NCBI GenBank assembly: GCA_012520995.1
Contig: JAAYNI010000010.1
Span: 7,671 to 71,670 of the forward strand
Length of the DNA: 64,000 nucleotides
Reading direction: 5' to 3'
DNA from: Candidatus Rifleibacteriota bacterium
GTDB taxonomy: Bacteria; Muiribacteriota; Ozemobacteria; Ozemobacterales; Ozemobacteraceae
The notes beneath the pieces are model-generated. The model had not been told where the DNA came from, ran no database searches, and worked only from the letters and a program-made list of their open reading frames with translations. Below are positions 16,766 to 56,439 of the stretch, piece after piece. Every line of letters starts with the position of its first letter. The stretch's first letter is position 1. Made by a program: the position numbers and the translations under genes.

Positions 16766-16841
16766 ACTGAATTTATATTGGCATTTGTTGAAAATTTAAT
16801 TATAATTATTATGTAGAGATGTACAGAAAAAGGAAAGCCGC

Positions 16842-42018: not shown

Positions 42019-45000
42019 TTATCCTAAAAAATTCATGAGCGACATCTGCATAAGCCTTGCTCCAACCTGCAAAGAAGCTTGATAAGATGCGGTCATCTCA
42101 TTCATTTTCATTATTTCTTCAATTATGTCAGCCTGACTTACTTTATTGAGCATCTTATTAACATTCAGATTGAGATTAGTCATTTTTTCTTCTGAATATT
42201 TTGCTCTGTTCGTCTTTACGCCCACTTCCGAATGCACATTCAAAAGTCTTCGTAAATCGCTTTCAAGACCAGGCAATGTGATATCCGAAACAGCTTTGAC
42301 ATCGCCCCTTAAAAGGCTGTCGCGTAAATCTATCAAAGTAGTAAACAAAGAGCGGCCAGGAGAAAAACCTAAAGCTCCTGCAGCTCCTTTAGAATCAGCC
42401 GGCTCCAATACTTTTATATAGTCTTTGCCAGCCCAGTTAGAAATATTGAGGCTTTTCTTGTCAGCAGAAATCCATGCCTGAGCCTGCATGTCAGGAACAT
42501 TATTGGAAATTGTATTGATAACGTCTCCGACAGTTTTGCATTCGGAAAGGTCTATTTCACCTGAGAATGTGCCGCTTTGAATGTAGATTTTGCCGCCCGG
42601 AAAACCTTCGCGCAAATCTTCTAAGCGGGTTCTTTCTGTAAGAGCGGGGTCCAAATCTTCACCCACAATCTTATGATCCACCGTTCTGCCTATAATGCCC
42701 AAATCATGACCGCAAGTGCTGTCAACGTCTACAACTTCCAAATGGCCAGTTGCGCCTCGGTTCAGGTCTTCTATTTCTATGCCGTTTTTATCGCTGTTAA
42801 TCTTGGCTCTGATATAAAGTCCATTTGAAGGATCGTTTATCTTATCCAGAACATCCTGAATACTCTCTGAACCGCGCAAATCTATAGCTTTGAAACGGCC
42901 GGCTTTGTCAGTGATCCTTATAAAACCCAGATTTACCCCGCTGGAATTGAAAGTTCTGTCGCTGTTGAGATCGCGCAAAAGAGTTTTTTCAGTGAGTATA
43001 GGATCCAAATCCTTGGCTCCTTCAAGAGTAGGCAGACTTGAAATCTTTACGGGAGTTGAAACTATCTTGACCTGATCATATACGGAAGCATTCTTGATAA
43101 AGCCCAAATCGCCAGCTGTATTTGAACTTTCTCTTGCTGCCAAAAAGCTCTTCGCATCGCCGTCTCGCGCTCTAATAAAAATTCTTTTTTCGCTGTCATC
43201 CCAAGAAGCTGTGTAAAAACCGCCGCTGTTGTTTATTCTGTCTATAACATCTTGAATAGTCGATGCGCCTTCGAGAGAAATTCGTTTTTCTTCACCATAT
43301 TCAGCATTTAAAACTACAGCGCCCTTAGCAGAAGGAGGGGGAATCAAATCTGCAAGCGGTGTATTCGCATTCAATGGAGAAGAAGCGGCAATAGGATCGC
43401 CTATCAAAGATGTGCCTTTGGTTTCTTTCAAGAGCCCTAAAGATTTGGCGGCTATTGTATCTTCTGAAACTTGAATTTGAGCTGTTCCGTCAAATTCTTC
43501 TATCGTGAAGTCGGAAGCGCCCAAGGTTGTATCAGTGATTCTTATTCTGTTTGAACCTGTATCATAAGAAGCCGTTTGAGCTCCGCCTGTTTGTGTATTT
43601 ACAGCCGCTATAATATCATCCGGAGTCTTGGCTTCAGAAATATCTACGTTTCTGGAAACGCCATCATGCCCAGTTATAGTTATAAATCCGCGTCTGAAAC
43701 CCTTGCCATCATTTATATTTTCCAAAGGGCTTTCGACAGAGTCCATAGCTATATCAGTCTTGGAGTAGAGCACACTTCCTGGACCAGCGTTATCAACAAG
43801 ACCCAAGTCAGCAGCAGTGCTTGGCGGCAATGCCTTTATATAAAACTGCGTTTTTTCCGAAGTTACCGAAAACTCGCCTTTGCCTTCTGTGAGGTTTTTT
43901 AATTCTATTCTTTTGTGAACCATGTCATAAGAAGCTCTTACAACCGAGCCGCCTGCATGGGCATTGATTTTGTCTATCACATCTTTGACAGTCACAGAAC
44001 CGGTTAAATCTATTCTGTGAATTTTTCCGTCTCTTGAAGCTATATTGAGATAACCGTCAGGAACCCCTAAACCTGCGTTCAAATCTGTAAGAGGCGTAAA
44101 CTCTGAACGCATTGCAGGGTCAGAAAGACCATAAATTTTGGAAGCATTGCCGGCATTTCTGTAAAGACCCAAAGCTGCAGCCGTATCTGATGGAACCTGT
44201 TCCAAACCTGCTTCAAAAGCCCCGGTTTCATTGATTTTATCCAACATCATCTGAATGTTGAAAACCTGAGTCAAATCAACCCTGTACTCTACGCCTGCCC
44301 GGTCTGATATTTTTATATATCCGCCCTGAACACCTCGTCCGCCATTCAAAACAGTAAGGGGCATAGCTTTTTCAAGAGGGGGCATTTGAGAAGAAAATGC
44401 GGGAGCTTCATTCGGAAGTCCGCCAAAAAACATTTCCAGAGCCGTAAAGCTTTTGCTTAGAGTAGCCCCTCTGTCAACTTCGCTCTTAAGACGAATCTCA
44501 TTGCCGTTATATCTGACACCGACTACGCTGTCTTCGTTGATCTTAGAGCGTTCCACACCATGCCCGTGAGTAACAATGGAAGTATTGAATTCGCCGTCTT
44601 TGCCCAAAACCAGTTCTATAGGCTTAATATTCGTATTGCTTCCGCTGAATATGTATTCTTCGCCTATTCTGGTGTTGGCTATGTTTGCAATTTCTTTCAT
44701 GAGCTCTTCGACTTCCTTAGCCATAGCATCTCTTTCGAGCTCTTCAAAAGTATCATTGGCTCCGCGAACAGCCAGCTCTTTAATGCGATGTATGATAGAC
44801 TCGGCGTTGGTCATAGCCCCGTCGCTTTTGGCATACCAGTCGAGAGAATGTTCTATATTCCTCAAGTATTGGTCATTTTCAAAAGCGTCGGTTCTCAGCT
44901 TCATAGCTATAGCGTTATCCGCAGGGTTTTCCGAAGGGGAAAGATATTTGCGGTTGGAAGCTATCTTTTCCTGGCTTGCCGCCAAGTTTGAAAAGTTGTT

Positions 45001-45051
45001 GTTGATTCGCCTTATGAAAGCATTATTGAACCAATGGCTCGTTACACGCAT
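42019..45051 (-). CDS. flgL: flagellar hook-associated protein 3 (FlgL) with six internal IN-motif repeat modules
   Basis: Flagellin-like N-terminus (ENPADNAIAMKLR...) and C-terminus (...SYQASLQVGARLMQMSLMNFLG). The central region has six repeats of about 95 aa, each ending ...DVIDKIN..GG. Confidence 0.8.
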   Translation of the reverse strand: MRVTSHWFNNAFIRRINNNFSNLAASQEKIASNRKYLSPSENPADNAIAMKLRTDAFENDQYLRNIEHSLDWYAKSDGAMTNAESIIHRIKELAVRGANDTFEELERDAMAKEVEELMKEIANIANTRIGEEYIFSGSNTNIKPIELVLGKDGEFNTSIVTHGHGVERSKINEDSVVGVRYNGNEIRLKSEVDRGATLSKSFTALEMFFGGLPNEAPAFSSQMPPLEKAMPLTVLNGGRGVQGGYIKISDRAGVEYRVDLTQVFNIQMMLDKINETGAFEAGLEQVPSDTAAALGLYRNAGNASKIYGLSDPAMRSEFTPLTDLNAGLGVPDGYLNIASRDGKIHRIDLTGSVTVKDVIDKINAHAGGSVVRASYDMVHKRIELKNLTEGKGEFSVTSEKTQFYIKALPPSTAADLGLVDNAGPGSVLYSKTDIAMDSVESPLENINDGKGFRRGFITITGHDGVSRNVDISEAKTPDDIIAAVNTQTGGAQTASYDTGSNRIRITDTTLGASDFTIEEFDGTAQIQVSEDTIAAKSLGLLKETKGTSLIGDPIAASSPLNANTPLADLIPPPSAKGAVVLNAEYGEEKRISLEGASTIQDVIDRINNSGGFYTASWDDSEKRIFIRARDGDAKSFLAARESSNTAGDLGFIKNASVYDQVKIVSTPVKISSLPTLEGAKDLDPILTEKTLLRDLNSDRTFNSSGVNLGFIRITDKAGRFKAIDLRGSESIQDVLDKINDPSNGLYIRAKINSDKNGIEIEDLNRGATGHLEVVDVDSTCGHDLGIIGRTVDHKIVGEDLDPALTERTRLEDLREGFPGGKIYIQSGTFSGEIDLSECKTVGDVINTISNNVPDMQAQAWISADKKSLNISNWAGKDYIKVLEPADSKGAAGALGFSPGRSLFTTLIDLRDSLLRGDVKAVSDITLPGLESDLRRLLNVHSEVGVKTNRAKYSEEKMTNLNLNVNKMLNKVSQADIIEEIMKMNEMTASYQASLQVGARLMQMSLMNFLG

Positions 45052-45072: not shown

Positions 45073-47076
45073 TTAGATCATTCCGTTAATCAGCTTGTCA
45101 AGCATCTCGTCTATTACGCTTATCGCCTTTGCCGAAGCGTTGTAAGCATGCTGATACTTTATAAGATTCGACAATTCTTCATCTAATGAGACTCCAGCTT
45201 GTGACTGGCGCTGTTTCTCCATATGGCTTATGACGTTCATGCCGTATTCAACCTCATTTTCAGCTCTCTTGCTGGCAGTAGCCAGCTGAGTTATAGCTTC
45301 GTTGTAAAATGAGTTCAATGTGGTTTTACCGTCATTAAAAAGAGCTTTGTGTTTAAGCTGAGCTATTTCTATAGCATTGTAGCCGTTGCCGTCACCATTG
45401 TAAGTTCTGAGTCTGTCGCCTTCATTCTCATAAGTGCCGCCTGAAGCAGCTATCACATTGAGATCCGCAAGAATTTGCGAATCTACAGCCATATTTTCAA
45501 TAGCATTTTTATAACCGGTTTCAGCAAAGTTGCCATTCATAGGCTGGAAGAAGTTTCTGCCTGTTTCTCCGTCAAGACCGTAACCCAATCTGTGTAAAGC
45601 GTTGGTCTCCGAAACTACCGCATAAGCCATCTCATTAAGCTTATTTATCAGGGTTTGAACTTCGCCGTCTCTGACACTCAAAAGAGCCCCCAGCTTTCCG
45701 CCTGTTACTGCCGGAGTAAGACCCAGGGTGGCAACGCCAGGCTTTTTGATTTCCAGATTCACTCCGGGAATAAGATCTTGAATACTGTTAGTCGGCAAAA
45801 CATATTCTTTGTTGCCCAAATTGAAAATAGCATCTCTGGGCTGTTTGCTGTCATGAAGATTTAAAACTGTGAAGAGATTGCTTGTGCCATCTTCGGTTTT
45901 AATGCTGTTTTTTGTTCCGCTGGCCGAAGCATTCAAAATCAACTGTCCCGATTCGTTGATATAAGCTTCCAAGCCTATATTGGCATCATTCAACATAGAA
46001 GCCAATTCCTTCATTCCTGTGTTTTCAGCATCCAGTTCGAAAGTTTTGCCGTTAACCGTGAAAGTGCCGCTTGTTATGCCGAAATCTGAAAGCGGTCCCG
46101 TCAGAGGGTGATATGTCAAAAACGAATACATGGAATGCTTTTCTGCTGTCTGAGTGACTGTCAAAGTCATGTTGTTGAGGTTTTTCAAACCTGTCGGAAC
46201 AGCAGAAGCCACATCAGGATCATTGGAAGCATCCGGCAAGCCTTTGGCAGAAGGCGAAACGAAACTTTTACCGCTGTCAGGATCGTAATGAGCATAAAAA
46301 TCATTGTGATACTCATGCTGAATCAAAGTGTGATCGCCTACGTTTACGGTCAGTTCGCCCTTTTTGTTGTAAAAAGATTTTATATTTACCAGCTCAGCAA
46401 GGTCTTCTAAAGCCATCTGTCTTTGATCTCGCAGTTCGTTAGCTGTAGAGCCGTTGATTTCGGAGCGGGCTATTTCTCTGTTAAGAACGGCAATCTCAGA
46501 AGCCAGCTTGTTAACTTGATTTACGTTTTCTCTGATTTGAGTTTCTATGCCGCCGTGATTGCTTTCGCATTTTACTCCTTGCAGATACTTAAGTTGAGAA
46601 TCTATTTCTTTGAAAACATCTATCAAGCTCTCTGTCTCAGCGATAAGACCTCGTCTTAATGCAGTATTGGAAGGGTCGTTTGCCAAATCTTGCCATGCCG
46701 CCCAATATTTGTCCAGCTGATTGGCTATATTAGAAAGACCAGGCTCATTTACTATGGCTTCCACCTGTTTAAGCAGAGTGTTTGTCAGATCATGGCCTGC
46801 AAGATCAGAAGTTTCATCAACAATCTTCGCATCCATATAAACATCGCGCAGCTGCTGAACAGTCGTAACCAAAACGCCGTTGCCTACAGTATGACCCATA
46901 GTAGCGTCATGTGAGCCGCTAAGCAGGTAAGATTTTGCGGAAGCCAGCACGGCTCTTTGCCTTGTGTAGCCTTCTGTGCCGGCGTTGACTATGTTTTGAG
47001 CCGTAACCTCCATAGCCGTTCTGTGAGCATACAAACCGCTCTTGGCTATGCTCAAGCCGGAAAAAGTGTTTCTCAT
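45073..47076 (-). CDS. flgK: flagellar hook-associated protein 1 (FlgK)
   Basis: N-terminus MRNTFSGLSIAKSGLYAHRTAMEVTAQNIVNAGTEGYTRQR and C-terminus ...IKYQHAYNASAKAISVIDEMLDKLINGM. Strong RBS AAGGAGG. Confidence 0.85.
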   Translation of the reverse strand: MRNTFSGLSIAKSGLYAHRTAMEVTAQNIVNAGTEGYTRQRAVLASAKSYLLSGSHDATMGHTVGNGVLVTTVQQLRDVYMDAKIVDETSDLAGHDLTNTLLKQVEAIVNEPGLSNIANQLDKYWAAWQDLANDPSNTALRRGLIAETESLIDVFKEIDSQLKYLQGVKCESNHGGIETQIRENVNQVNKLASEIAVLNREIARSEINGSTANELRDQRQMALEDLAELVNIKSFYNKKGELTVNVGDHTLIQHEYHNDFYAHYDPDSGKSFVSPSAKGLPDASNDPDVASAVPTGLKNLNNMTLTVTQTAEKHSMYSFLTYHPLTGPLSDFGITSGTFTVNGKTFELDAENTGMKELASMLNDANIGLEAYINESGQLILNASASGTKNSIKTEDGTSNLFTVLNLHDSKQPRDAIFNLGNKEYVLPTNSIQDLIPGVNLEIKKPGVATLGLTPAVTGGKLGALLSVRDGEVQTLINKLNEMAYAVVSETNALHRLGYGLDGETGRNFFQPMNGNFAETGYKNAIENMAVDSQILADLNVIAASGGTYENEGDRLRTYNGDGNGYNAIEIAQLKHKALFNDGKTTLNSFYNEAITQLATASKRAENEVEYGMNVISHMEKQRQSQAGVSLDEELSNLIKYQHAYNASAKAISVIDEMLDKLINGMI

Positions 47077-47243: not shown

Positions 47244-47316
47244 GCAAGATTAACTCAATTGGTAGAGTGTCACCCTTCCAAGGTGAAAGTTGCGGGTTCG
47301 AGTCCCGTATCTTGCT
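47244..47316 (+). tRNA. tRNA-Gly (anticodon TCC)
   Basis: Folded by hand. The acceptor stem is gcaagat/atcttgc; the D-stem is actc/gagt with the loop aattggta. The anticodon stem is tcacc/ggtga with loop cTTCCaa, and the T-arm is gcggg-ttcgagt-cccgt. The discriminator is U and no CCA is encoded. Confidence 0.85.
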
Positions 47317-47519
47317 CTTTTTTATTTTAGAAAAGCCAGAAAAAATTCCAAACCCCTCTTTGAAACCACAGAACACACGGAAAAATTCCAAAACCTTTCT
47401 ACCCACCATCCACTACCCACAACCCACTGCTTTTCAGCCGTACACTTCCTAATTTCATGTCAAACTGCTATAATTAAAGAAAGATCTCACCTTTTATAAG
47501 GATTACAAGGAGCAAACCC

Positions 47520-49259
47520 ATGAGAATGACACTTAAAAGACGAGGAGTGGCTCTATCTTTTATTCTTGGAGTGGTCAGCTTTATAAGCATTCTGCTTTTC
47601 GGAATGATATATCGGATGCGCGGAGAAACAGTCTTGTCGGGCAACTATGTAGATGCCACGGCAGCTTTGATATTGGCTGAAGCAGGAGCAGAAGAAGCGC
47701 TTTTCAACATGCGGACTCAGCTGAACAATCCCGATTATCCTCTATACAAGCTGGTAGCCAATGAAGACAGCGGATCTTTGATGGTAGACACAGAGAGACT
47801 GGCGAAAGGCGATACAAATGTAGCTCCGCTTCTGCAAAAGAGTGATATAAAAGTTCAAGTAGATTGGCAGCTGGACAAAGCCGCCACTCAAAATCTTATA
47901 TCTCAGGGAGTTCCCCCCGGAGTCGCCAGACAAGGCTATATAACTATAAACTCCATGGGAAAACACAACAACACCAAGAAGCAGATTGAAATGAAAAAGC
48001 TTTTGAAAGCGGTTCTCATGAAAACTTCTGAAGACAAAGAAACATTAGGTGTAGTGGCTCCCGCTCACAGCTTTTTTGCCGACATGGTCAAAAAGGACTC
48101 CTTTGAGATAGCGAAATTCGATATTCTTGACCCTTGGGGCTTTACGGTAAAAGGCGGCAAGGCTTACTTTAAAAACGGAGCTGTTGTAGACCTTCCAAAA
48201 TGGCTGATGCTCACTAAACTTTCCAATCAGCTTGAGCACCCTTGGATAGACATGGGAATAGGCTGGACAGGCTGGAACGGCGGCGCCGATTTCAGCGAAA
48301 CTCAGCTGGAATACACAGATTCGCCTGTAAAACGACACTACAACAAATGGCAGGGTCCATTCTCTTTCCCTTGGTGGCAGGGCAACAGCAGCGAAAAATA
48401 CCATGCCGAAACAACTCAAGTCGGCGAATATTCCGACAAAGACCTGAATATCTATCCGGCTTCTGTTTATAAGTCTTTGGCTACTAGAGTCATAGACCCT
48501 AAAGAGAATCCAAAACATGGCAAATATTTTACAAACGTAAAGTTTCAAGAAGCGTTTGGCAGAAACGAAGTAAATTACACCAACGTTTTGCCAATGTATG
48601 GCTGGGGCGACTGGAGAAACGTTCCAAACAAATTCTCCAGCATCTTCAGCAACCCTACAAAAGCCCACGACTTCAGCAGAGCTGTAGAAGTTAATGGCAT
48701 AACCTATGTTAAAGGCGATGTTTTTATAGAGGGATGGGTAAAAGGGCAAGGTCTCTTAGTGGTAGAAGGAAACGTATATGTTGGCGGCGACATACTCACC
48801 ACCCTAGATGAAAACGGTAATGAGTCGGCACTTGGCATAATAGCATTGCGCGACAAAACTCACGACACTTCATCTGACAACCCCAGAACCGGCCGAATAA
48901 TCTATGAACCCCATCACGACAGCGACTGGTCCAGATACGGAATTACTCACCCCTTCAGAAACTTAAGCCCGAGGCTTGAAGGAGCCTTCTACGCTGAAGG
49001 CGGCATGGAGCTGAAAACTGATTCATCCATGAAAAAACTCATAAACATGGACATAATAGGTAATCTGGCCGTCGGATATTTCAACAGAAAAAAAATGCCA
49101 AACGATGTAAGAGTTACTTACTTTGACTGGCAAAAAGTTCTAGAGAATTCAGGCAATGAGAACATGACAGTCAGCACTACTGTTTCATACTCAGATATAT
49201 ACAATGTGGCGATCCAAAAGCCTTTAATATCTTGGAGAGAAGTCACGGCTACACTCTAA
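47520..49259 (+). CDS. large PilX-N-like (type IV pilus minor pilin/tip-associated) protein, paralogous in architecture to 13539..15641
   Basis: The N-terminus KRRGVALSFILGVVSFISILLFGMIY...ATAALILAEAGAEEALFNM follows the PilX_N pattern. The C-terminal region is beta-rich (VKGDVFIEGWVKGQGLLVVEGNVYVGGDI). Confidence 0.5.
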   Translation: MRMTLKRRGVALSFILGVVSFISILLFGMIYRMRGETVLSGNYVDATAALILAEAGAEEALFNMRTQLNNPDYPLYKLVANEDSGSLMVDTERLAKGDTNVAPLLQKSDIKVQVDWQLDKAATQNLISQGVPPGVARQGYITINSMGKHNNTKKQIEMKKLLKAVLMKTSEDKETLGVVAPAHSFFADMVKKDSFEIAKFDILDPWGFTVKGGKAYFKNGAVVDLPKWLMLTKLSNQLEHPWIDMGIGWTGWNGGADFSETQLEYTDSPVKRHYNKWQGPFSFPWWQGNSSEKYHAETTQVGEYSDKDLNIYPASVYKSLATRVIDPKENPKHGKYFTNVKFQEAFGRNEVNYTNVLPMYGWGDWRNVPNKFSSIFSNPTKAHDFSRAVEVNGITYVKGDVFIEGWVKGQGLLVVEGNVYVGGDILTTLDENGNESALGIIALRDKTHDTSSDNPRTGRIIYEPHHDSDWSRYGITHPFRNLSPRLEGAFYAEGGMELKTDSSMKKLINMDIIGNLAVGYFNRKKMPNDVRVTYFDWQKVLENSGNENMTVSTTVSYSDIYNVAIQKPLISWREVTATL

Positions 49260-49264
49260 GAACA

Positions 49265-49289
49265 GGGAGTAGGGGTTAGGGCGTAGGGG
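49265..49289 (+). repeat. G-quadruplex-capable motif GGGAGTAGGGGTTAGGGCGTAGGGG (recurring intergenic motif)
   Basis: Four G3-4 tracts with 3-4-nt loops begin 6 nt after the stop codon. A close copy lies on the opposite strand at 57624-57653, and partial copies at 4759-4775 and 38472-38495. Confidence 0.5.
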
Positions 49290-49330
49290 ATAGCGAAGAC
49301 CCAATACCCAGGACAAAAAGCACAAAAAAA

Positions 49331-49362
49331 ATCGCAGGTTAACTGCGATTTTTTTTTCTTTT
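49331..49362 (+). terminator. rho-independent terminator
   Basis: Perfect hairpin atcgcag gttaa ctgcgat followed by T9. It is preceded by an A-run. Confidence 0.75.
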
Positions 49363-49564
49363 TATTCTATTAACGCCTTTAAAGAATCAGAAAAGAAAAA
49401 GGCCGAAGTTTTTTCCAAGATCTGCCGATATATTCATGAAAAACTATGCAATAAGGTAAAGTTCCATTAAAAAGCATCTGAAAAAATACCTGTTATTCAT
49501 AATATTAGGACAGGTTTTCATAATTGGAGCCTATTTCCAGTCAAATGGCTTCATTTACCGCGAT

Positions 49565-51157
49565 TTGCCAAGCACCACGGCAAGTTCCTTGTCCGAGCAA
49601 AGCAGTCGTCAAATGGCACCGCCCGAGCCTTTCGGACAGCGCCATTATATGGAACTGCTCACAGAAAAAGAGTATCTGCTGGCAGAAAGCGAAGCCAGCG
49701 ACTTTCTTCTGTCTGAGTTTCTCATGGAACATGCTTCTTCCACAGAGGATGTTTCTTCCGAACTCATAGAAACTGTTAAAACAGAAATAGCAGCAACTGC
49801 AGCGGAAATCAAAGCAGAAAAAAAAGCTGTTCTCAGCTCCGTAAAATTCAGAACAGAAGAAGCACATGGAGTTATGGAGTTTTTCTTTGACAAACCAGTG
49901 CAAATACTGAAGAGAAATACAGGCATTTCTCTATTGAAGCTCAGATTCGTTCCGGCTCTGGAAGAACTGGCTCCTGAAGTGACTGCTCAGATAGAAGAAA
50001 AGTTCAACAAAGTCACTTTCTATTACACAGACTCATACACAGAACTGCTTTTAGCCACAGACCATAAGTTCGGCACTCCTTATACTGCTTCCAAAGAAAA
50101 TGAGCCATTCAGGCTTTGCGTGCCATTCCGCCTTGAAGAAAAAGGTTTTCCTCTTGTTCACGGCACAAGAATACAAAACGGTCTTGTCTATTACAGAGAC
50201 AGAACTCCCAGCGGCAACGGCATGTCAGATATTCATATTTTAAAAATCGATCCATTTGCAGACAATTTGGATTTGATTCCATCACTCGGACAAGGCGGCA
50301 TTTCAAAGAGAGAAACCCTCTCTTCCATGTCCAAACGATATAAAGCTTTGGCAGGAATAAACGGCGCTTATTTCGCAGCTAACGGTTCACCTATTGGAAC
50401 CCTTATAATAAACAAAAAATTATTAAGTTCTTCGCTTTACAAAAGATCTGTTTTTGGTATAACAGAAGATGGTATACTAGCATTTGGGAATCCGGACTTT
50501 TCCGGGACACTCAAGGCGGGCAGTCTGTCTATTGAAATAGACGCGGTCAATCAGCCGCTTTCAGACAACTCGCTTGTGGTCTATACTCCCGAATACGTCA
50601 ACAATACCGCGGCAGATCCTCCGGAGCTGACAGCAGTTCTTGTAAAGGGAAAAATTGTGGGAATTTATCAAAACGACGCTTTGATTCCTCCTGATGGCGT
50701 AGCTGTATCCGCCACAGGCGAAAAAGCAGCGCTTCTTTCCAAGTTGTCTCTTGGACAATCCGTCAAGCTTGATTATTCAATTCAAAAACCTTGGAACAAC
50801 ATTAAACACGCCATTTGCGGCGGTCCAAGGCTATTAGCTGACGGACAGATTTCAATCAACGGACAAGAAGAAAAGTTCCATTATTCCATAGTCAAAGGCA
50901 GACATCCGCGAACAGCGGTTGGAGCAACCTTTGACGGAGATCTTCTCTTTGTCGTGGTAGACGGCAGATCCGCTAGAAGCAAGGGCATGACCCTTCAAGA
51001 ACTCGCAGCCTACCTCCAGAAGCTAGGTGTTCGCCATGCTATCAACCTTGACGGCGGCGGCTCAACTTCAATGGTGATAAACGACAAAACCGTCAACATA
51101 CCGTCTGACGGAAGAGAGAGAAGGATTTCCAATGGCATTCTTATTACGGCGCGCTAA
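49565..51157 (+). CDS. phosphodiester glycosidase family protein (DUF2233/NAGPA-like C-terminal domain)
   Basis: C-terminal ...ICGGPRLLADGQ...AVGATFDGDLLFVVVDGRS...AINLDGGGSTSMV. The N-terminal 180 aa are uncharacterised and the start is uncertain. Confidence 0.6.
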   Translation: MPSTTASSLSEQSSRQMAPPEPFGQRHYMELLTEKEYLLAESEASDFLLSEFLMEHASSTEDVSSELIETVKTEIAATAAEIKAEKKAVLSSVKFRTEEAHGVMEFFFDKPVQILKRNTGISLLKLRFVPALEELAPEVTAQIEEKFNKVTFYYTDSYTELLLATDHKFGTPYTASKENEPFRLCVPFRLEEKGFPLVHGTRIQNGLVYYRDRTPSGNGMSDIHILKIDPFADNLDLIPSLGQGGISKRETLSSMSKRYKALAGINGAYFAANGSPIGTLIINKKLLSSSLYKRSVFGITEDGILAFGNPDFSGTLKAGSLSIEIDAVNQPLSDNSLVVYTPEYVNNTAADPPELTAVLVKGKIVGIYQNDALIPPDGVAVSATGEKAALLSKLSLGQSVKLDYSIQKPWNNIKHAICGGPRLLADGQISINGQEEKFHYSIVKGRHPRTAVGATFDGDLLFVVVDGRSARSKGMTLQELAAYLQKLGVRHAINLDGGGSTSMVINDKTVNIPSDGRERRISNGILITAR

Positions 51158-52988
51158 AAGACAATTTTCCGCGACGCTTATTTTCAGCATAATCTCAGCA
51201 TTTTTATTTCCGACAAGCATTTTTGCCAACACGAAAATAATGCCCGCCAAAGATGTGCGCATAGGCATGAAAGGCTTCGGAAAAACTGTTATCGAAGGCA
51301 GAAAAATAGAAACCTTCGAAGTTGAAGTTTTAGGAATTCTTGCCAATAACAAAGTAAACGAAAGCCCTTCTCCGACAGGTCAATCCTTTATGGTGCGAGT
51401 AAGCGGCGATGTAATCAGAAGAGCTGGCGGAATAGCCGCGGGAATGAGCGGCAGCCCTGTTTATATCAACAATATGCTGATAGGCGGTATCAGCTCAGGC
51501 TGGCTTATGACAGACCACACGGTCGGGCTTGTAACGCCAATAGAAGAAATGATTGCAATCTGGCAATATCCAAATCTTTCAGCTGCTTTGCCTTCTGGCA
51601 AGAAAAGTGCCGATTCTTCTATATGGACACTCTCAGAGCCTGTAAAGCTTGCAGGCAAAGAGTATAACAAAATCAGAGAAGTTCCCTTCACAAAAGCAGA
51701 AGAAATCTGCCTTGAAGAAGATGAAGCAGCCTTTGTTTACGCTGCTTCCGACATACTCATTGAAGGCCTTTCCGGAAAAGCGGCAGCAAATGTAAAAAAC
51801 CGTTTCAAAGACAGAAATATCAGAATAATGGAATCAAAATTCAAAACCTCTTATTCTGAACCCGCAAGAAACCCAGACCTCTTTGCAGAAATATCTCCCA
51901 GCGCTTACGAACCAGGTTCCAGCATAGGAATACAGCTCGCCAGAGGCGATATAAACATGGTATCACTGGGCACACTGACTCACAGAGAAGGAGAACTGAT
52001 TTTAGGTCTTTCCCATTCTTTTTTAGGAACAGGAGCTGTATCCTATCTTATGACAGCCGCCTATATACATCACTCTTTTTCCAGTGTTCAGATGCCTTTC
52101 AAAATAGGCTCACCTGTTGAAATGATTGGCATAATAACTCAAGACAGAGAAAAAGGAGTAGCCGGTGAAATAGGTCGCCTTCCTTTAATGATCCCCATTA
52201 GCATAGATGTTTCCGATCGTGACATAAACATCTCCAAAACGATAAACTTTCAGATTGTAAGAGATCCTTCAGTATTTTTGACTATTCTGGAATCTTCAAT
52301 ACTGCAGGCAATAAACAGCTCCATGGACAGAACTGGCGGCGGCACCGCTAAAATAGGCATTTCATTTGAATGCGCAAACAGGGAAAATAAATACTACTTT
52401 TTCCGCAGAGACAATATTTTCTATTCAAAAAACGATATTGCCCAGACAATTGCCTCAGACTTAATCTCCATAATGGAGAATGTTACTGAAAACGAAGATG
52501 AAGAAGTTATGCCCACAAGGATTCTCATAAAACTTGAGTTCCAGAAAGAGCGAAAGACACTTGCAATAGAAAAGGTTGAAATAAAAAACTCTTCTATAAC
52601 CAGCGGAGGCGTATTAAACGTCGAAGTAACCTTGAAACCTTATCGCAAACCTTCTTTCATACGAAAAGTGGATCTCACAATCCCGGACGATATAGGCAAA
52701 GAAACCCTTGTATTATCCGTACAAGGACTTAACTTAAAGCCTTCGGAGCATCAGAACTTGATAACAGACGAGCACAAACCTCCTTCCGAAAGCGGCGGTT
52801 CTTCTTTTGAAGACAAAATGAAATATTGGGTCAGCAGTCCTAAGAACTCCGACCTTATTTTCACTCTTTATCCCGAAGGCAACGAGAGCAACAAACTGAA
52901 CTTGAATGGAAAAAGCTCTGAAATACAGCCCACCAATTTCGTTGTCATAGGAAAAATAGAAAACACCATAACTCTGAGCGAAGAATAA
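51132..52988 (+). CDS. putative serine peptidase (GMSGSP motif as in SpoIVB/S55) with an N-terminal signal/TM segment and a long C-terminal region
   Basis: The signal-like N-terminus is followed by ...AGGIAAGMSGSPVYINNMLIGGISSGW at about residue 100, resembling the S55/SpoIVB catalytic-serine motif but in an atypical position. It overlaps the upstream gene by 26 nt. Confidence 0.4.
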   Translation: MAFLLRRAKRQFSATLIFSIISAFLFPTSIFANTKIMPAKDVRIGMKGFGKTVIEGRKIETFEVEVLGILANNKVNESPSPTGQSFMVRVSGDVIRRAGGIAAGMSGSPVYINNMLIGGISSGWLMTDHTVGLVTPIEEMIAIWQYPNLSAALPSGKKSADSSIWTLSEPVKLAGKEYNKIREVPFTKAEEICLEEDEAAFVYAASDILIEGLSGKAAANVKNRFKDRNIRIMESKFKTSYSEPARNPDLFAEISPSAYEPGSSIGIQLARGDINMVSLGTLTHREGELILGLSHSFLGTGAVSYLMTAAYIHHSFSSVQMPFKIGSPVEMIGIITQDREKGVAGEIGRLPLMIPISIDVSDRDINISKTINFQIVRDPSVFLTILESSILQAINSSMDRTGGGTAKIGISFECANRENKYYFFRRDNIFYSKNDIAQTIASDLISIMENVTENEDEEVMPTRILIKLEFQKERKTLAIEKVEIKNSSITSGGVLNVEVTLKPYRKPSFIRKVDLTIPDDIGKETLVLSVQGLNLKPSEHQNLITDEHKPPSESGGSSFEDKMKYWVSSPKNSDLIFTLYPEGNESNKLNLNGKSSEIQPTNFVVIGKIENTITLSEE

Positions 52989-52989
52989 A

Positions 52990-53778
52990 ATGTATTTGAT
53001 AAAAAAAGCAAAACAGTTTCTCAATGAAGTCGGAGGCATGACAATCCTCTTCCTTCAAACGATTTACTGGACTATTCGCAACATACGCTCTGGTAAGTTT
53101 GATGTCAAAGGTCTGATAGACCAAATGGCACATATAGGAGTGGACTCAGTTCTAATGGTCTGCATTACAGGCGTTTCCGTCGGAGCCGTTCTGGTTGTTC
53201 AAATAGGTTATCAATTCGCTCAAATGGGTGCTCAAGGCTATGTGGGCGGCGTTGTCGCATTGGCCATGGCCAGAGAAATGGCGCCTATTCTCACCTCCAT
53301 AGTAGTTGCAGGCAGAGTCGGAAGCTCTATCGCCGCTGAGCTTGGCACTATGAAAATAACGGAACAAATAGACGCTCTTGACACCTTGGCGACCAATCCT
53401 GTCGATTATCTTGTAGTTCCGAGATTCTGGGCATGCACAATAATGCTTGTTATGCTCACAGTTCTTGTAAACGTAGTAGGAATGATTGGCGGAGCAGTTG
53501 TTGCGGTTTACCAGATAGACTTGACTCTTGAATCTTTCACCAACTCTGTCTTGGAATGGCTGAGAGTCTATGACCTTTTCGGAGGGCTTTTCAAGGCTAT
53601 GGTTTTTGGAGCAATCATTGCAATAATCGGGTGCTTCAAAGGTTTCACCACTTCCGGCGGTGCAGAAGGCGTAGGAAAAAGCACAACTGACTCTGTTGTT
53701 GTTGCTATTATGATGATTCTTGCTGTAAACTACTTTCTGACCGTTTTTATAAGCAATCTGAACAGCATTATTTTCTGA
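52990..53778 (+). CDS. mlaE: ABC transporter permease, MlaE family
   Basis: MlaE/Ttg2B-like TM protein (ELGTMKITEQIDAL). Confidence 0.8.
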   Translation: MYLIKKAKQFLNEVGGMTILFLQTIYWTIRNIRSGKFDVKGLIDQMAHIGVDSVLMVCITGVSVGAVLVVQIGYQFAQMGAQGYVGGVVALAMAREMAPILTSIVVAGRVGSSIAAELGTMKITEQIDALDTLATNPVDYLVVPRFWACTIMLVMLTVLVNVVGMIGGAVVAVYQIDLTLESFTNSVLEWLRVYDLFGGLFKAMVFGAIIAIIGCFKGFTTSGGAEGVGKSTTDSVVVAIMMILAVNYFLTVFISNLNSIIF

Positions 53779-54524
53779 TGATTATCGTCTCTAACTTACA
53801 TAAAAGTTTTGGCTCCAAAGCCGTTTTAAAAGGCGTAAATCTCAAGATTTACGATGGAGAGTCATTAGTGATTCTCGGCCCTTCCGGATGCGGCAAAAGT
53901 GTTTTACTTAAGCACATAATAGGTCTGATGAAGCCAGACAAAGGACAGATACTTATAGACGGTGAAGACATTACAAAACTTGAACAAACAAGAATGGACG
54001 AACTGCGTATGAGGATGGGTATGCTCTTCCAGTCAGCGGCTCTCTTCGACTCCTTAAATGTCGAGGACAACATAGCTTTCGGAATAAACAGACACACCTC
54101 TCTTTCCAAAAGAGCGGTACATCATCTTGTCTCTGAGAAGCTTGAAATGGTCGGACTGCCTGGCACAAACTATCTTATGCCCTCTGAATTGTCAGGCGGT
54201 ATGAGAAAACGTGTCGGATTAGCACGAGCTATAGCCATGGAGCCTGAAATTATCCTTTATGACGAGCCTACCACAGGCCTTGATCCAATCATGACTTCCG
54301 CTATTGACGAACTTCATCTTTCGCTCAAAGAAAAGCTGGGAGTTACTTCAATTATGGTTACTCACGACATGAAATCTGCTTTCAGAGTAGCCGACAGAGT
54401 GGCTCTTCATTATGGCGGACAAATAGTTGAAATAGGAAGCAAAGAAGAAATCATGAATTCCCAAAACCCATTAGTGCAGCAGTTTGTAAGAGGCGAGGCT
54501 CAAGGGCCTATGACTCAATTGTAA
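53778..54524 (+). CDS. mlaF: ABC transporter ATP-binding protein, MlaF family
   Basis: Walker A GPSGCGKS, the signature LSGGMRKR and Walker B ILYDEP. Confidence 0.85.
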   Translation: MIIVSNLHKSFGSKAVLKGVNLKIYDGESLVILGPSGCGKSVLLKHIIGLMKPDKGQILIDGEDITKLEQTRMDELRMRMGMLFQSAALFDSLNVEDNIAFGINRHTSLSKRAVHHLVSEKLEMVGLPGTNYLMPSELSGGMRKRVGLARAIAMEPEIILYDEPTTGLDPIMTSAIDELHLSLKEKLGVTSIMVTHDMKSAFRVADRVALHYGGQIVEIGSKEEIMNSQNPLVQQFVRGEAQGPMTQL

Positions 54525-54537
54525 AGAGGAAGAGCAA

Positions 54538-55923
54538 ATGACATCCACAACAAAAGTTGGCATAATGACCCTTCTGGTAACAACACTGCTCGTATATTTG
54601 GTATTCGTAATAGGCGACTACAGCTTCAAAGAAAAGGGTTACTCATTTACAATCAGTTTTTACGCAGTAAACGGCCTCAGCCGCGGCTCAAGGGTCTCTA
54701 TTTCCGGGGTCAACATAGGCAAGGTCGAAGACATAAACATAGTGGATGACCAAGTATACGTTCTTGTCTCAATTCAAGATAAAAAATATCACATCAGACG
54801 AAAAAACACTTTTACTATATCCTCGGCAGGCCTTATGGGTGAAAAATTTGTAGAAATAGTTCCTACAAGAGACTATACCTCGCCATATGTTGCTCCTGGA
54901 GAAGTAGTTCCTGGAACCGACCCAACCAGAATGGAAGAGCTCTTTGAAAGAGGAAATGCCCTGATTCACCGATTACAGGAAGTTACAGACGCGGCAAAAG
55001 ATCTCCTTGGCGATCCCTCCATCAAAGAAAACGCCAAGCTGTTGGTGCAAAACGCAAAAGATGCTTCTGTAAATATTTCCGAGATAACCGCTTCATTAAA
55101 AAGCAAGACCGACAGCATTGCAGATAATCTTGTAAGACTGCTGGATAACCTCTCAACTGAGATCGAAGGTAATAAAATTGCTATAAAAGAACTTATAGCC
55201 AACTTCCGAGATCTCAGTGAAAAGCTAAACGGCATGACAGGCGAAAACAGAGAGAATATAAAAGAAATAGTAACCAGCGTCAAAGGAGCCGTCAGCAATC
55301 TGGAGAAAATTCTGGAAGACTTGAGCAAAAACAACGATATGAGCGGCGATATCAAGAAAACTGCCGAAGCTCTCAGGAAAACTGCTGAAAACACAGAAGA
55401 AATAACTGCTGAATTGAAAAAAAACATCAATGACCCTGAAATAAGATCGAAAGTTTCGGGAACTCTGAAGGATGTCAACAAGATTGCTTCAACTGCTGAT
55501 AAAATCTTTACAGGATTTAAAGAGACGCAATTCAATTTCAAATATCATCTGAGGTATTTTGAACCTACTGATGATATTCTCTCAGACATAAATCTGGATA
55601 TGCTTAAGAGCAATGATTCTTTCTTCAGAATAGGAATCGAAGACATAGGAAACGAAAACGATTTTACATTCATGTTCGGACAAAAAACCAATAAACCCAA
55701 GCTCACGTCAAGAGCTGGCATATTAGCTTCTAAAATAGCTCTTGGAGCTGATTATCAAGCCACTGACAAAATACTTTTCAGCGTAGACATGATAGACACC
55801 AAAGACTTTGACATAAGACTCACTGCAGATTACAAGGTTGACGACCATATGAACTTTAAAGTCAGAATGGATGAAACGCTGAAAGACCAAAATCTGAGTT
55901 TCGGGTTAGAATACACTTTCTAG
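54538..55923 (+). CDS. mlaD: MCE-domain protein (MlaD-like) with a long coiled-coil C-terminal region
   Basis: N-terminal TM segment plus an MCE domain (FTISFYAVNGLSRGSRVSISGVNIGKVEDI). Confidence 0.75.
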   Translation: MTSTTKVGIMTLLVTTLLVYLVFVIGDYSFKEKGYSFTISFYAVNGLSRGSRVSISGVNIGKVEDINIVDDQVYVLVSIQDKKYHIRRKNTFTISSAGLMGEKFVEIVPTRDYTSPYVAPGEVVPGTDPTRMEELFERGNALIHRLQEVTDAAKDLLGDPSIKENAKLLVQNAKDASVNISEITASLKSKTDSIADNLVRLLDNLSTEIEGNKIAIKELIANFRDLSEKLNGMTGENRENIKEIVTSVKGAVSNLEKILEDLSKNNDMSGDIKKTAEALRKTAENTEEITAELKKNINDPEIRSKVSGTLKDVNKIASTADKIFTGFKETQFNFKYHLRYFEPTDDILSDINLDMLKSNDSFFRIGIEDIGNENDFTFMFGQKTNKPKLTSRAGILASKIALGADYQATDKILFSVDMIDTKDFDIRLTADYKVDDHMNFKVRMDETLKDQNLSFGLEYTF

Positions 55924-56036: not shown

Positions 56037-56439
56037 GGGTCCGGATCATATAAGTATTATCAAGATTTGTTTTTTCAGAGCTTCAGCTGTTTAGCAGGCA
56101 TAGCAATTATTATGTCAAGCAATTGACTGCTTTGAGATGCTGGCAAATAGTTGTATCCTTGGATTGAGAGATGTCATCGAATGAATATTCCGAATATTTT
56201 GAGGCAAAAACCGATAGTAAATGAATTCTTCAAAGAGAATTCATTTATGGACAAGCCGCAGGTTAAGAACAGAGATTTACAAGTTTACTTGTGAAATCTC
56301 TGTCTTAAGCTGAGACTGAGCAAAAGCAGACATGCTTTTGCGAGATTTTTGGTCTTTATCGGTCCTTTATCTGTGTTAATCTGTGTTAATCTGTGGATAG
56401 AAATATAAATATATAAAAATTCAAGGAAAGATAATAAAA

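What the first reader, a model, noticed from the sequence alone, without database searches (positions are those of the whole stretch)
47520..52988. Candidate cell-surface module: second PilX-N-like protein + DUF2233 phosphodiester glycosidase + serine peptidase with an N-proximal GMSGSP motif
Three co-directional genes sit just upstream of the MlaEFD operon; the last two overlap by 26 nt. The peptidase carries GMSGSPVY (SpoIVB/S55-like or chymotrypsin-fold) at about residue 100 of 618, not near the C-terminus, and lacks a PDZ domain, so the architecture is atypical. Phosphodiester glycosidases uncover sugar-phosphate linkages. Combined with a pilus-tip-like protein, this could be a system that processes surface glycopolymers or pilin glycans. 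I do not recognise this gene combination as a described system.
Basis: inference. Interest (0 to 1): 0.6.

Follow-up and report, generated by a model that had tools for sequence, protein, structure and literature searches.

The report
Outer-membrane operon: glycosidase, permuted protease, MlaEFD
The three genes are real but are not one system. The first is a separate pilus-tip-like protein, and the other two (a sugar-phosphate glycosidase and an unusual serine protease) open a five-gene operon with the MlaEFD lipid transporter, a pairing conserved in the outer-membrane gene cluster of many two-membrane bacteria and still of unknown function.

Summary
There are three co-directional genes in a Riflebacteria-type genome: DUF2233/NAGPA (Pfam E 4e-43, DGGGS motif present), an S55-like protein with GMSGSPVY at residues 104-111, and a 26-nt overlap between the last two.

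- **Gene 1** is a Riflebacteria-only protein. Its model matches the ComZ tip pilin of Thermus (Foldseek E 2e-8). An intrinsic terminator follows it, and its linkage to the other genes varies.
- **Genes 2-3** are tightly coupled to mlaE-mlaF-mlaD (long MlaD) and are bounded by terminators, so they form a five-gene operon.
- **Synteny.** The order NAGPA-S55-MlaEFD recurs in Negativicutes, including Veillonella parvula (Vpar_0519 and Vpar_0521, both found in its outer-membrane proteome). In other diderm Terrabacteria, S55 sits directly before TamB/BamA.
- **Literature.** An Acetonema S55-domain protein co-purified with BamA.
- **The protease domain** appears circularly permuted relative to SpoIVB. 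The Ser barrel comes first and the His/Asp barrel about 190 residues later. Ser106, His295 and Asp273 are kept in 80 of 90 relatives. They are lost only in the second copies of tandem pairs.

Verdict: this is a new member of a recognised but uncharacterised envelope module, not a pilin-glycan system. The proposed role, envelope proteolysis and glycan trimming coupled to outer-membrane biogenesis, is inferred.

The parts
47244..47317 (+). tRNA-Gly(UCC), upstream boundary of gene 1
   Evidence: ARAGORN.
47520..49259 (+). Gene 1: 579-aa ComZ/GspK-like large minor (tip) pilin-like protein. It forms its own transcription unit and is not part of the operon.
   Evidence: No Pfam family. Sequence search returned 71 homologues, all named ones Riflebacteria/Ozemobacteraceae, at 52-64% identity and about 579 aa. 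AF2 model pLDDT 79.7, pTM 0.75, with an N-terminal helix at 8-67 followed by a beta-rich body. The only significant PDB fold match is ComZ 6qvi (E 2e-8, prob 1.0).
49324..49356 (.). Bidirectional intrinsic-terminator-like hairpin with T/A runs, between gene 1 and gene 2
   Evidence: 14-pair stem, T-run. Sequence read.
49466..51157 (+). Gene 2: inner-membrane-anchored DUF2233/NAGPA phosphodiester glycosidase homologue. It is 563 aa if translation starts at ATT 49466. The first canonical start is TTG 49565, and the database homologue P0192 starts at ATG 49613. The DGGGS motif lies at 51050-51064.
   Evidence: PF09992 E 4.3e-43. PDB sequence hits: Slr0280 5h3k at 9e-17, NAGPA 6pki/6pkg/6pku, DUF2233 3ohg. 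The in-frame helix IKKHLKKYLLFIILGQVFIIGA matches homologue N-termini. DGGGS position; its role is described in PMC13474241.
51132..52988 (+). Gene 3: 618-aa Sec-exported S55-like serine peptidase with a permuted protease domain. Layout: signal peptide about 1-33; Ser barrel 39-141 (Ser106 = nt 51447-51449); insert about 150-255; His/Asp barrel about 255-352 (Asp273, His295 = nt 52014-52016, Asp338); uncharacterised C-terminal domains 353-618.
52990..53778 (+). MlaE permease; its start lies 1 nt after the gene 3 stop codon
   Evidence: PF02405 E 2e-78, TIGR00056. Junction read.
53778..54524 (+). MlaF ABC ATPase; overlaps the MlaE stop by 1 nt
   Evidence: PF00005 and PRK11831 MlaF, 2e-65.
54538..55923 (+). 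Long MlaD (461 aa): N-terminal membrane helix, MCE domain, long helical region, C-terminal beta region (Veillonella type)
   Evidence: PF02470. End-to-end alignment with V. parvula MlaD, E 9e-27. The type is described in PMC10665443.
56320..56341 (+). Terminator-like hairpin after mlaD, the probable operon end

Best explanation
The interval contains two unrelated things.

(1) Gene 1 is a stand-alone, Riflebacteria-specific type IV pilin-like protein of the ComZ/GspK kind. It has an N-terminal hydrophobic helix, a pilin core and a large beta-rich insert. It probably caps a type IV filament.

(2) Genes 2 and 3 are the first genes of a five-gene operon, NAGPA-S55-MlaE-MlaF-MlaD (about 49466-55923). 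This operon is the Riflebacteria version of a module that sits in the outer-membrane (OM) biogenesis gene cluster of diderm Terrabacteria.
- Gene 2 encodes a periplasm-facing, membrane-anchored homologue of GlcNAc-1-phosphodiester alpha-N-acetylglucosaminidase with the catalytic DGGGS loop.
- Gene 3 encodes a secreted serine endopeptidase. Its SpoIVB-type (S55) chymotrypsin-like domain appears circularly permuted: the Ser106 barrel comes first, then an insert of about 110 aa, then the His295/Asp barrel. About 270 residues of unclassified domains follow.

Shown here: the gene structure, the domain assignments, the permuted order, the conservation of the catalytic residues, and the cross-phylum synteny with MlaEFD, TolC, TamB and BamA.

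From the literature: the V. parvula homologues occur in OM fractions, and an Acetonema S55-domain protein co-purified with BamA.

Inferred: the protease cleaves or quality-controls envelope proteins at the OM-biogenesis machines (BamA, TamB, trans-envelope MlaD). The glycosidase trims a GlcNAc-1-phosphate-linked wall or envelope glycan. Together they keep the wall/OM interface compatible with these trans-envelope machines. The substrates are unknown.
For: Operon structure: terminator-like hairpins at 49324-49356 and 56320-56341; a 26-nt overlap, a 1-nt spacer, a 1-nt overlap and a 13-nt gap between successive genes.

Synteny: NAGPA-S55-MlaE-MlaF-MlaD is found in Riflebacteria. It is also found in Pelosinus, Propionispora, Sporomusaceae, Veillonella, Phascolarctobacterium, Acidaminococcaceae and Pectinatus. 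Dialister and Megasphaera carry S55-MlaEFD without a detected NAGPA gene. 'Bacterium GBS-1' also has S55-MlaEFD. TamB lies directly downstream of S55 in 13 loci without Mla, and BamA/POTRA proteins lie nearby in 11 loci.

Protease: the Ser half matches SpoIVB (Pfam E 7e-9, PDB 9lnf). A profile of the family hits 9lnf at 6e-12 and weakly aligns its GT.T...GH segment to SpoIVB His236. A permuted profile aligns collinearly with SpoIVB 216-412 at 61.1 bits, against 54.6 bits for the native order. A permuted sequence extends the Pfam match to model positions 80-210, at 42.5 against 36.5 bits. Ser106, His295 and Asp338 are invariant and Asp273 nearly invariant in 34 diverse members. The Ser-Asp273-His set is kept in 80 of 90 locus-derived members, and all 10 exceptions are second copies in tandem pairs. 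The N-terminus reads as a signal peptide.

Glycosidase.

Gene 1.

Literature: PMC5491611, PMC13018214, PMC10665443.
Against: No experiment addresses function, substrate or co-transcription in any organism. The permutation rests on modest score gains (about 6 bits). I could not read model coordinates, so Ser-His-Asp geometry is unverified, and pLDDT around His295 is low. SpoIVB itself has a non-canonical active site. The BamA co-purification rests on 3 peptides. In Thermotogae, Bipolaricaulota and several Gracilicutes-type phyla, S55 has no Mla, TamB or BamA neighbour, so a specific tie to lipid transport is not universal. Upstream neighbours (MurA, MreB, FlgHIJ, Mur ligase) fit a wall-centred role equally well. 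Gene 1 does lie within about 5 kb upstream in 6 of 7 Riflebacteria loci, so some lineage-specific association cannot be excluded.
Confidence: 0.6

Rival explanations
1. One reading: the three genes form one cell-surface system in which the glycosidase and protease process pilin glycans or surface glycopolymers for a pilus tipped by gene 1.
For: Gene 1 is directly adjacent in the window and in L002/L003. It lies within about 5 kb upstream in L001, L005 and L064. It is pilin-like. The NAGPA domain is genuine.
Against: A terminator lies between genes 1 and 2. A two-component system and other genes are inserted between them in L001. Gene 1 was found only in Riflebacteria-type contigs, while NAGPA-S55 is conserved without any pilin gene in Negativicutes, other Bacillota and Armatimonadota. 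Genes 2-3 are translationally coupled to mlaE, not to gene 1.
Confidence: 0.06
2. NAGPA and S55 are primarily cell-wall remodelling enzymes. They would act on peptidoglycan-linked polymers or wall proteins as part of wall growth, or to let envelope-spanning machines pass the wall. Adjacency to Mla/TamB would then be only cluster hitch-hiking.
For: Recurrent upstream neighbours are MurA-MreB and FlgH-FlgI-FlgJ. S55 is followed by a Mur ligase in Thermotogae, Bipolaricaulota and Fraserbacteria. The V. parvula NAGPA homologue reads as AMIN-like after its signal peptide, by eye only, and some distant homologues carry AMIN, SPOR or SLH domains. GlcNAc-1-phosphate is the classical linkage of wall polymers to MurNAc (general knowledge).
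Against: There is a 1-nt spacing to mlaE in Riflebacteria. TamB is directly downstream in 13 loci. The homologues were recovered in OM and surface fractions. An S55-domain protein co-purified with BamA. This rival overlaps the best explanation and differs mainly in the target.
Confidence: 0.22
3. The S55-like protein is a non-catalytic structural or adaptor protein (a pseudo-protease) of the outer-membrane machinery.
For: Only half of the S55 model matches in the native order. About 75% of the protein has no Pfam family. Catalytically dead paralogues exist. SpoIVB has an aberrant triad.
Against: Ser106 and His295 are invariant in 34 diverse members. They are retained in 80 of 90 members and lost only in duplicated second copies. 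That is the pattern expected if the first copy is an active enzyme.
Confidence: 0.1

Closest known systems
Vpar_0519 (DUF2233) and Vpar_0521 (SpoIVB-like N-terminus) of Veillonella parvula, in the outer-membrane gene cluster of diderm Firmicutes (PMC5491611, PMC5007114)
   Same: The gene order NAGPA-(small gene)-S55-MlaE-MlaF-MlaD-TolC-TamB is seen in V. parvula locus L038. The S55 proteins are full-length homologues (about 29% identity) with the same Ser, His and Asp motifs. Locus-tag numbering fits: 0519, 0521, TolC 0525, TamB 0526, BamA 0527.
   Different: Riflebacteria lack the small secreted protein between the two genes, and lack TolC/TamB downstream. Their NAGPA protein carries an uncleaved membrane anchor and an acidic linker instead of a cleaved signal peptide. 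Function is unknown in both.
SpoIVB, the sporulation signalling protease of Bacillus subtilis (MEROPS S55; PDB 9lnf; PMC12502668)
   Same: The GMSGSP serine motif, the GT.T...GH histidine motif, and the two-barrel chymotrypsin-like protease domain. Both act in a space between two membranes.
   Different: Domain order is permuted (Ser before His). No PDZ domain is recognised. There is an extra C-terminal region of about 270 aa. The organisms are non-sporulating. The NCBIfam SpoIVB equivalog score is 37 bits against a cut-off of 305. Asp338 is spaced from His295 as Asp102 is from His57 in chymotrypsin, and SpoIVB has Asn at that aligned position (inference).
Three-component MlaEFD system with a trans-envelope MlaD of V. 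parvula (PMC10665443)
   Same: mlaE-mlaF-mlaD order. A long MlaD that aligns end to end with the V. parvula protein. No MlaA, MlaB or MlaC in the operon.
   Different: That paper describes the operon as mlaEFD followed by tolC and tamB. A text search of it for S55, SpoIVB, peptidase and protease found nothing. Here the two upstream genes are tightly coupled to mlaE.
ComZ competence pilin of Thermus thermophilus (PDB 6qvi; PMC6561018) and the GspK tip pseudopilin
   Same: Gene 1 has a long N-terminal helix and a large beta-rich body. ComZ is its only significant PDB fold match.
   Different: There is no detectable sequence similarity to any PDB chain. The TM-score is low (0.2). No adjacent minor pilin genes occur in this window. 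DNA binding and tip location are untested.
NAGPA, the eukaryotic 'uncovering enzyme', and bacterial DUF2233 structures (6pki, 3ohg, Slr0280 5h3k)
   Same: PF09992 domain, invariant DGGGS loop.
   Different: It is bacterial and membrane-anchored, with an extra N-terminal region of about 300 aa. The substrate cannot be mannose-6-phosphate glycans and is unknown.

Membership tests
Peptidase S55 (SpoIVB family; Pfam PF05580 / MEROPS S55) | Catalytic serine in a GMSGSP-type motif within the C-terminal barrel | tested here: met
   G104-M-S106-G-S-P109. It is aligned to SpoIVB S378 (Ala in 9lnf), and is invariant.
Peptidase S55 (SpoIVB family; Pfam PF05580 / MEROPS S55) | Catalytic histidine equivalent to SpoIVB His236 | tested here: met
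   His295, in the segment LGTLTH...LGLSH, aligns to SpoIVB GIGTMTF...GALGH. It is invariant in 34 members and kept in 81 of 90. The segment alignment is weak when scored alone.
Peptidase S55 (SpoIVB family; Pfam PF05580 / MEROPS S55) | Collinear domain order: His barrel before Ser barrel | tested here: not met
   Ser106 precedes His295 by 189 residues. Pfam matches only model positions 115-210 in the native order. Only a permuted sequence or profile aligns across the domain junction.
Peptidase S55 (SpoIVB family; Pfam PF05580 / MEROPS S55) | PDZ domain N-terminal to the protease domain | tested here: not met
   No PDZ family at E <= 0.1 on the whole protein, or at E <= 10 on residues 155-255. 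Whether the insert has a PDZ-like fold could not be tested because the fold libraries were unavailable.
Peptidase S55 (SpoIVB family; Pfam PF05580 / MEROPS S55) | Scores above curated thresholds | tested here: inconclusive
   Pfam: 36.5 bits against a gathering score of 25, which passes. NCBIfam SpoIVB equivalog TIGR02860: 37.4 bits against 305, which fails. So it is a domain-level relative and not a SpoIVB orthologue.
Peptidase S55 (SpoIVB family; Pfam PF05580 / MEROPS S55) | Serine endopeptidase activity | not testable with these tools
   Needs biochemistry.
DUF2233 / NAGPA phosphodiester glycosidase (PF09992) | Domain match above threshold, and relatives with solved structures | tested here: met
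   147.9 bits against a cut-off of 25. Slr0280, NAGPA and DUF2233 chains at E 9e-17 to 1e-11.
DUF2233 / NAGPA phosphodiester glycosidase (PF09992) | Invariant DGGGS substrate-recognition loop (PMC13474241) | tested here: met
   DGGGS at residues 529-533 of the 563-aa form, nt 51050-51064. The motif is defined.
DUF2233 / NAGPA phosphodiester glycosidase (PF09992) | Cleavage of GlcNAc-1-phosphodiester | not testable with these tools
   Needs an enzyme assay.
Three-component trans-envelope Mla system (V. parvula type) | mlaE, mlaF and a long mlaD in one operon, with MlaD carrying MCE, a helical region and a C-terminal beta region | tested here: met
   domains; 461 aa against 427 aa, aligned over residues 1-461, E 9e-27. 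The beta-barrel fold itself was not modelled here.
Outer-membrane biogenesis gene cluster of diderm Terrabacteria (Antunes 2016; Poppleton 2017) | Conserved co-location of NAGPA and S55 genes with Mla, TolC, TamB and BamA | tested here: met
   In Riflebacteria only the NAGPA-S55-MlaEFD core is contiguous.
Type IV pilin-like proteins (ComZ/GspK-type tip pilins), for gene 1 | N-terminal hydrophobic alpha-helix followed by a pilin beta-sheet with an inserted large domain | tested here: met
   Model helix 8-67, then strands. ComZ 6qvi match at E 2e-8, prob 1.0, but TM about 0.2.
Type IV pilin-like proteins (ComZ/GspK-type tip pilins), for gene 1 | Prepilin peptidase signal (G followed by F/M-x-x-x-E) or an N_methyl/PilX_N profile match | tested here: not met
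   No Pfam pilin family at E <= 0.1. The N-terminus KRRG-VALSF lacks Glu5, as seen directly in the sequence. Some tip pseudopilins also lack Glu5 (general knowledge), so this does not exclude the fold.

The most novel reading that the evidence does not exclude
The permuted S55 protease is a dedicated, catalytically active accessory of the minimal outer-membrane biogenesis machinery of diderm Terrabacteria. In this reading it acts on or with BamA, TamB and trans-envelope MlaD, filling the role that BepA/DegP-type factors or MlaA-type partners play in Proteobacteria. It would also represent the ancestral envelope protease from which the sporulation signalling protease SpoIVB arose by circular permutation and PDZ acquisition. 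That would tie endospore intermembrane signalling to the ancestral two-membrane envelope.
Probability: 0.2. Interest if true: 0.8.

Novelty: new member of a known kind. Interest (0 to 1): 0.5.

Why it matters
Diderm Terrabacteria (Negativicutes, Riflebacteria, Armatimonadota and others) run stripped-down BAM, TAM, LPT and Mla systems, without the accessory lipoproteins known from E. coli. Which proteins substitute for those accessories is an open question.

A very widespread family sits next to, and in Riflebacteria is coupled to, the lipid transporters. It has about 5000 clusters at 50% identity, is secreted, and is probably an active protease. It is found in outer-membrane fractions and in a BamA pull-down. 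This makes it an obvious untested candidate.

V. parvula is genetically tractable, so the hypothesis can be tested directly.

The analysis also adds concrete features. I found no mention of them in the papers I searched, but that search was limited:
- the apparently circularly permuted S55 domain;
- a chymotrypsin-like Asp position that SpoIVB lacks;
- inactive paralogues in tandem pairs;
- a probable mis-annotated start (non-canonical ATT) that hides the membrane anchor of the glycosidase.

Tried and rejected
- **Pfam on sub-segments.** Scans of the S55 protein (His region, insert, C-terminus) at E <= 10 found nothing. A scan of all 34 diverse family members found only PF05580.
- **Gene 1.** There is no paralogue of it in the window, no PDB sequence relative, and no Pfam or NCBIfam family.
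- **Asp363 and Thr393.** I asked whether the family keeps an equivalent of SpoIVB Asp363 or Thr393. Those aligned positions (near Asp93 and Ser121) are variable in the family, so I rejected them as conserved catalytic residues.
- **Asp213.** I first recalled Asp213 as the published third catalytic residue of SpoIVB. The literature names Asp363, questioned by the crystal structure. Asp273 aligns near SpoIVB Asp213, but its role is unknown.
- **Literature.** Searches for SpoIVB together with MlaD found nothing. The V. parvula Mla paper does not mention the upstream genes. I found no functional study of a bacterial DUF2233 envelope protein.
- **Catalytic geometry.** I could not measure Ser-His-Asp distances because model coordinates are not exposed.

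Full report
**What is there.** The window comes from a genome of Candidatus Riflebacteria type. All three proteins have their best full-length homologues (about 50-64% identity) in contigs that carry that name.
- gene 1, 47520-49259 (579 aa);
- gene 2, ending at 51157;
- gene 3, 51132-52988 (618 aa), overlapping gene 2 by 26 nt.

They are followed by MlaE, MlaF and a 461-aa MlaD, then an asparaginase. Pfam gives NAGPA/DUF2233 for gene 2 (E 4.3e-43), Peptidase_S55 for gene 3 (E 7e-9), and nothing for gene 1.

**Gene 1 is a separate matter.** A 14-pair hairpin flanked by A and T runs (49324-49356) follows it. Sequence search returned 71 homologues. All named ones are Riflebacteria or Ozemobacteraceae, and their length is strikingly constant at about 579 aa. 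There is no paralogue in the window.

Its position varies among Riflebacteria loci:
- adjacent to the NAGPA gene in L002 and L003;
- separated from it by a histidine kinase, a sigma-54 activator and two small genes in L001;
- separated by 3-4 kb in L005 and L064;
- not seen within 5 kb in L004.

The AlphaFold model has pLDDT 79.7 and pTM 0.75. It shows a helix at 8-67 followed by a beta-rich body. Its only significant PDB match is the Thermus competence pilin ComZ (6qvi; E 2e-8, prob 1.0, but TM about 0.2). ComZ is a GspK-like pilin core with a large inserted beta-solenoid, and it was argued to sit at the pilus tip (PMC6561018). So "pilus-tip-like" is a fair description of gene 1, but I found no link to genes 2-3.

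**Genes 2 and 3 belong to an operon with mlaEFD.** The spacings from gene 2 to mlaD are a 26-nt overlap, a 1-nt spacer, a 1-nt overlap and a 13-nt gap. The next terminator-like hairpin lies after mlaD, at 56320-56341. This is a five-gene unit, inferred from sequence and not from transcript data.

**The start of gene 2 is probably mis-set.** Homologues begin with a hydrophobic helix, for example MKDSLKQFLGLLLIGQLFLIGA. The same helix, IKKHLKKYLLFIILGQVFIIGA, is encoded in frame upstream of the first canonical start codon. Between the preceding stop (49457-49459) and this conserved stretch, the only near-cognate start is ATT at 49466. It lies 9 nt after an AAGG. The database version (P0192, 514 aa, 100% identical) starts at ATG 49613 and so lacks the anchor. 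With the anchor, the protein is a membrane-tethered, periplasm-facing enzyme. The V. parvula counterpart has a cleavable signal peptide instead.

The catalytic domain matches Slr0280, vertebrate NAGPA and a bacterial DUF2233 structure. It carries the DGGGS loop reported as invariant and critical for NAGPA catalysis (PMC13474241; position).

**Gene 3 is a large, widespread family, not a SpoIVB orthologue.** A search of 1.84 billion cluster representatives found 4959 relatives at E <= 1e-3 and 1016 at E <= 1e-30. Most are 570-700 aa and match over nearly the full length. Only PF05580 is recognised in any of 34 diverse members. In the native order, only model positions 115-210, the serine half, match residues 39-141. 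The same holds against the SpoIVB crystal structure 9lnf.

In a 34-sequence alignment with about 30% mean identity, Gly104, Met105, Ser106, Gly107, Pro109, His295, Lys324, Asp338 and Arg339 are invariant. Asp273 is nearly so.

**The protease domain appears circularly permuted.** In SpoIVB the order is His236 then Ser378. Here it is Ser106 then His295. Three results support a permutation:
- The family profile hits 9lnf at 6e-12. It also places its "GT.T...GH" segment on SpoIVB residues 216-236, the catalytic His236. This second alignment is weak when scored alone.
- An artificially permuted sequence (residues 255-352 followed by 34-146) extends the Pfam match across the junction, to model positions 80-210, and raises the score from 36.5 to 42.5 bits.
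- A permuted family profile aligns in one collinear stretch to SpoIVB 216-412, at 61.1 bits against 54.6 for the native order.

One caveat applies. It agrees with the 9lnf segments printed, and with the published numbering of His236 and Ser378. The score gains are modest, so I treat the permutation as well supported but not proven.

Asp338 lies 43 residues after His295, much as Asp102 follows His57 in chymotrypsin. SpoIVB has Asn at the aligned position, and its crystal structure was reported to lack a canonical triad (PMC12502668). This family may therefore have the more canonical active site. That is inference only.

The AF2 model (pLDDT 73) shows a six-strand barrel at 47-136 and an alpha/beta insert at about 163-233. 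A second strand-rich region lies at 264-347, and confident but unclassified domains run from 353 to 614. PDB fold matches were weak hits to HtrA/MarP-type proteases over about 120-140 columns.

**The catalytic residues look functional.** Among 90 family members extracted from 78 loci, 80 keep Ser106, Asp273 and His295. All 10 exceptions are the downstream copy of a tandem S55-S55 pair, in Planctomycetota, Zixibacteria, Latescibacterota, Gemmatimonadota, Saccharicenans (Aminicenantes by my own assignment) and Spirochaetia. Loss only in duplicates argues that the primary copy is an active enzyme. The N-terminus (MAFLLRRAKRQFSATLIFSIISAFLFPTSIFA/NT) reads as a Sec signal peptide, judged from the sequence.

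**Synteny across phyla.** A genome scan returned 80 loci from many phyla. I searched their ORFs with the window's proteins, clustered the flanking genes, and annotated cluster representatives with Pfam.
- **NAGPA-S55-MlaE-MlaF-MlaD.** This order occurs in Riflebacteria and in Pelosinus, Propionispora, Sporomusaceae, Veillonella (including V. parvula L038), Phascolarctobacterium, Acidaminococcaceae and Pectinatus. Dialister and Megasphaera have S55-MlaEFD without NAGPA. "Bacterium GBS-1" also has S55-MlaEFD.
- **Downstream in Negativicutes.** The run continues TolC-TamB.
- **No Mla at the site.** In other Bacillota MAGs, Halanaerobiaceae, Armatimonadota and Ca. Fervidifonticultor, TamB follows S55 directly (13 loci). 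A POTRA/BamA protein lies a few genes on (11 loci).
- **Upstream neighbours.** These are MurA-MreB or FlgH-FlgI-FlgJ.
- **Other phyla.** Thermotogae, Bipolaricaulota and Fraserbacteria have S55 followed by a Mur ligase. Several Gracilicutes-type phyla have tandem S55 pairs with other neighbours.

**What the literature already says.** Poppleton et al. 2017 (PMC5491611) detected both Vpar_0519 ("DUF2233") and Vpar_0521 in whole-cell, outer-membrane and surface-exposed fractions of V. parvula. They singled out Vpar_0521 (N-terminal SpoIVB domain) as conserved in diderm Firmicutes with an unknown OM-related role. Their numbering (TolC 0525, TamB 0526, BamA 0527) fits the order seen in L038.

[quoted passage not shown] MlaD there is F7NM28 (PMC13018214).

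The V. parvula Mla study defines the ancestral three-component MlaEFD system with a trans-envelope MlaD. It does not mention the upstream genes (PMC10665443). The window's MlaD aligns end to end with the V. parvula protein (E 9e-27). Riflebacteria are counted among the OmpM-bearing diderm Terrabacteria (bioRxiv 10.1101/2021.05.31.446380).

**How it most likely works.**
- Shown here: two exported enzymes encoded in one tightly packed unit with a lipid transporter; conserved catalytic motifs; conserved neighbourhood with the OM lipid and protein insertion machines.
- From the literature: OM-fraction location of the V. parvula homologues, and BamA proximity of an S55-domain protein in Acetonema.
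- Inferred, with moderate to low confidence: the protease cleaves or quality-controls envelope proteins at those machines. The glycosidase removes a GlcNAc-1-phosphate-linked glycan from the wall or envelope.

A wall-centred role is a serious rival, given the MurA, MreB, FlgHIJ and Mur-ligase neighbours and the AMIN, SPOR and SLH domains in distant NAGPA relatives. A purely structural role for S55 is less likely given.

**Novelty and verdict.** The window's genes are new members of a module that has been noticed but never characterised. The additions from this analysis are:
- the operon-level coupling to mlaEFD in a second phylum;
- the breadth of the family;
- the permuted protease domain with a conserved Ser/His/Asp set;
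- the inactive tandem paralogues;
- the corrected start of the glycosidase.

Interest is moderate. The function is an open and testable question about outer-membrane biogenesis outside Proteobacteria.

Noticed in passing
window 49446-49468: The conserved membrane helix of the NAGPA protein is encoded upstream of any ATG, GTG or TTG. The only possible start is ATT 49466, with AAGG at 49453-49456. A two-codon mini-ORF, ATG-CAA-TAA (49446-49454), sits just before it. The public annotation (514 aa) starts 147 nt downstream and loses the anchor.
   Followed up: partly
L057, L058, L060, L070, L072, L073, L079, L080, L082, L083 (gene directly downstream of the matched S55 gene): In tandem S55-S55 pairs of Planctomycetota, Zixibacteria, Latescibacterota, Gemmatimonadota, Saccharicenans and Spirochaetia, the second copy (about 660-750 aa) has lost the Ser and/or His. 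These look like pseudo-protease partners of an active first copy.
   Followed up: partly
L038 6716-7000 (V. parvula) and 20 other loci: A small secreted protein of about 94-102 aa sits between the NAGPA and S55 genes in Negativicutes, and near S55 in an Armatimonadota MAG and an unclassified MAG (L014, L012). It has a signal peptide and a Val/Thr-rich beta-type sequence, and the one representative scanned has no Pfam family. It is absent from Riflebacteria, where the two genes overlap instead.
   Followed up: no
L049, L050, L065, L069, L074: In Thermotogae, Bipolaricaulota/Acetothermia and Fraserbacteria, the S55-family gene is followed directly by a Mur-ligase-family gene instead of Mla or TamB. 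This hints at a wall-related context in phyla reported to lack Mla.
   Followed up: partly
window 42019-45051 (- strand): The FlgL-type hook-associated protein is 1010 aa. It has Flagellin_N and Flagellin_C ends and a very long middle containing repeated Flagellin_IN-type segments. FlgK (45073-47076) also carries such a motif.
   Followed up: no
window 13539-18467: A type IV minor-pilin cluster: two small proteins with N-terminal methylation motifs (15619-16107 and 16100-16663), flanked by 700-aa and 541-aa proteins without any Pfam family.
   Followed up: no
window 8496-8565 (- strand): ARAGORN calls a tRNA-Asn with the unusual anticodon ATT inside a 293-aa ORF on the opposite strand (7867-8748). 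It is probably a false positive.
   Followed up: no
window 26053-29130: A 1025-aa protein with four GAF domains and an HD_5/HD domain (HD-GYP-like by my reading), presumably a signalling phosphodiesterase.
   Followed up: no
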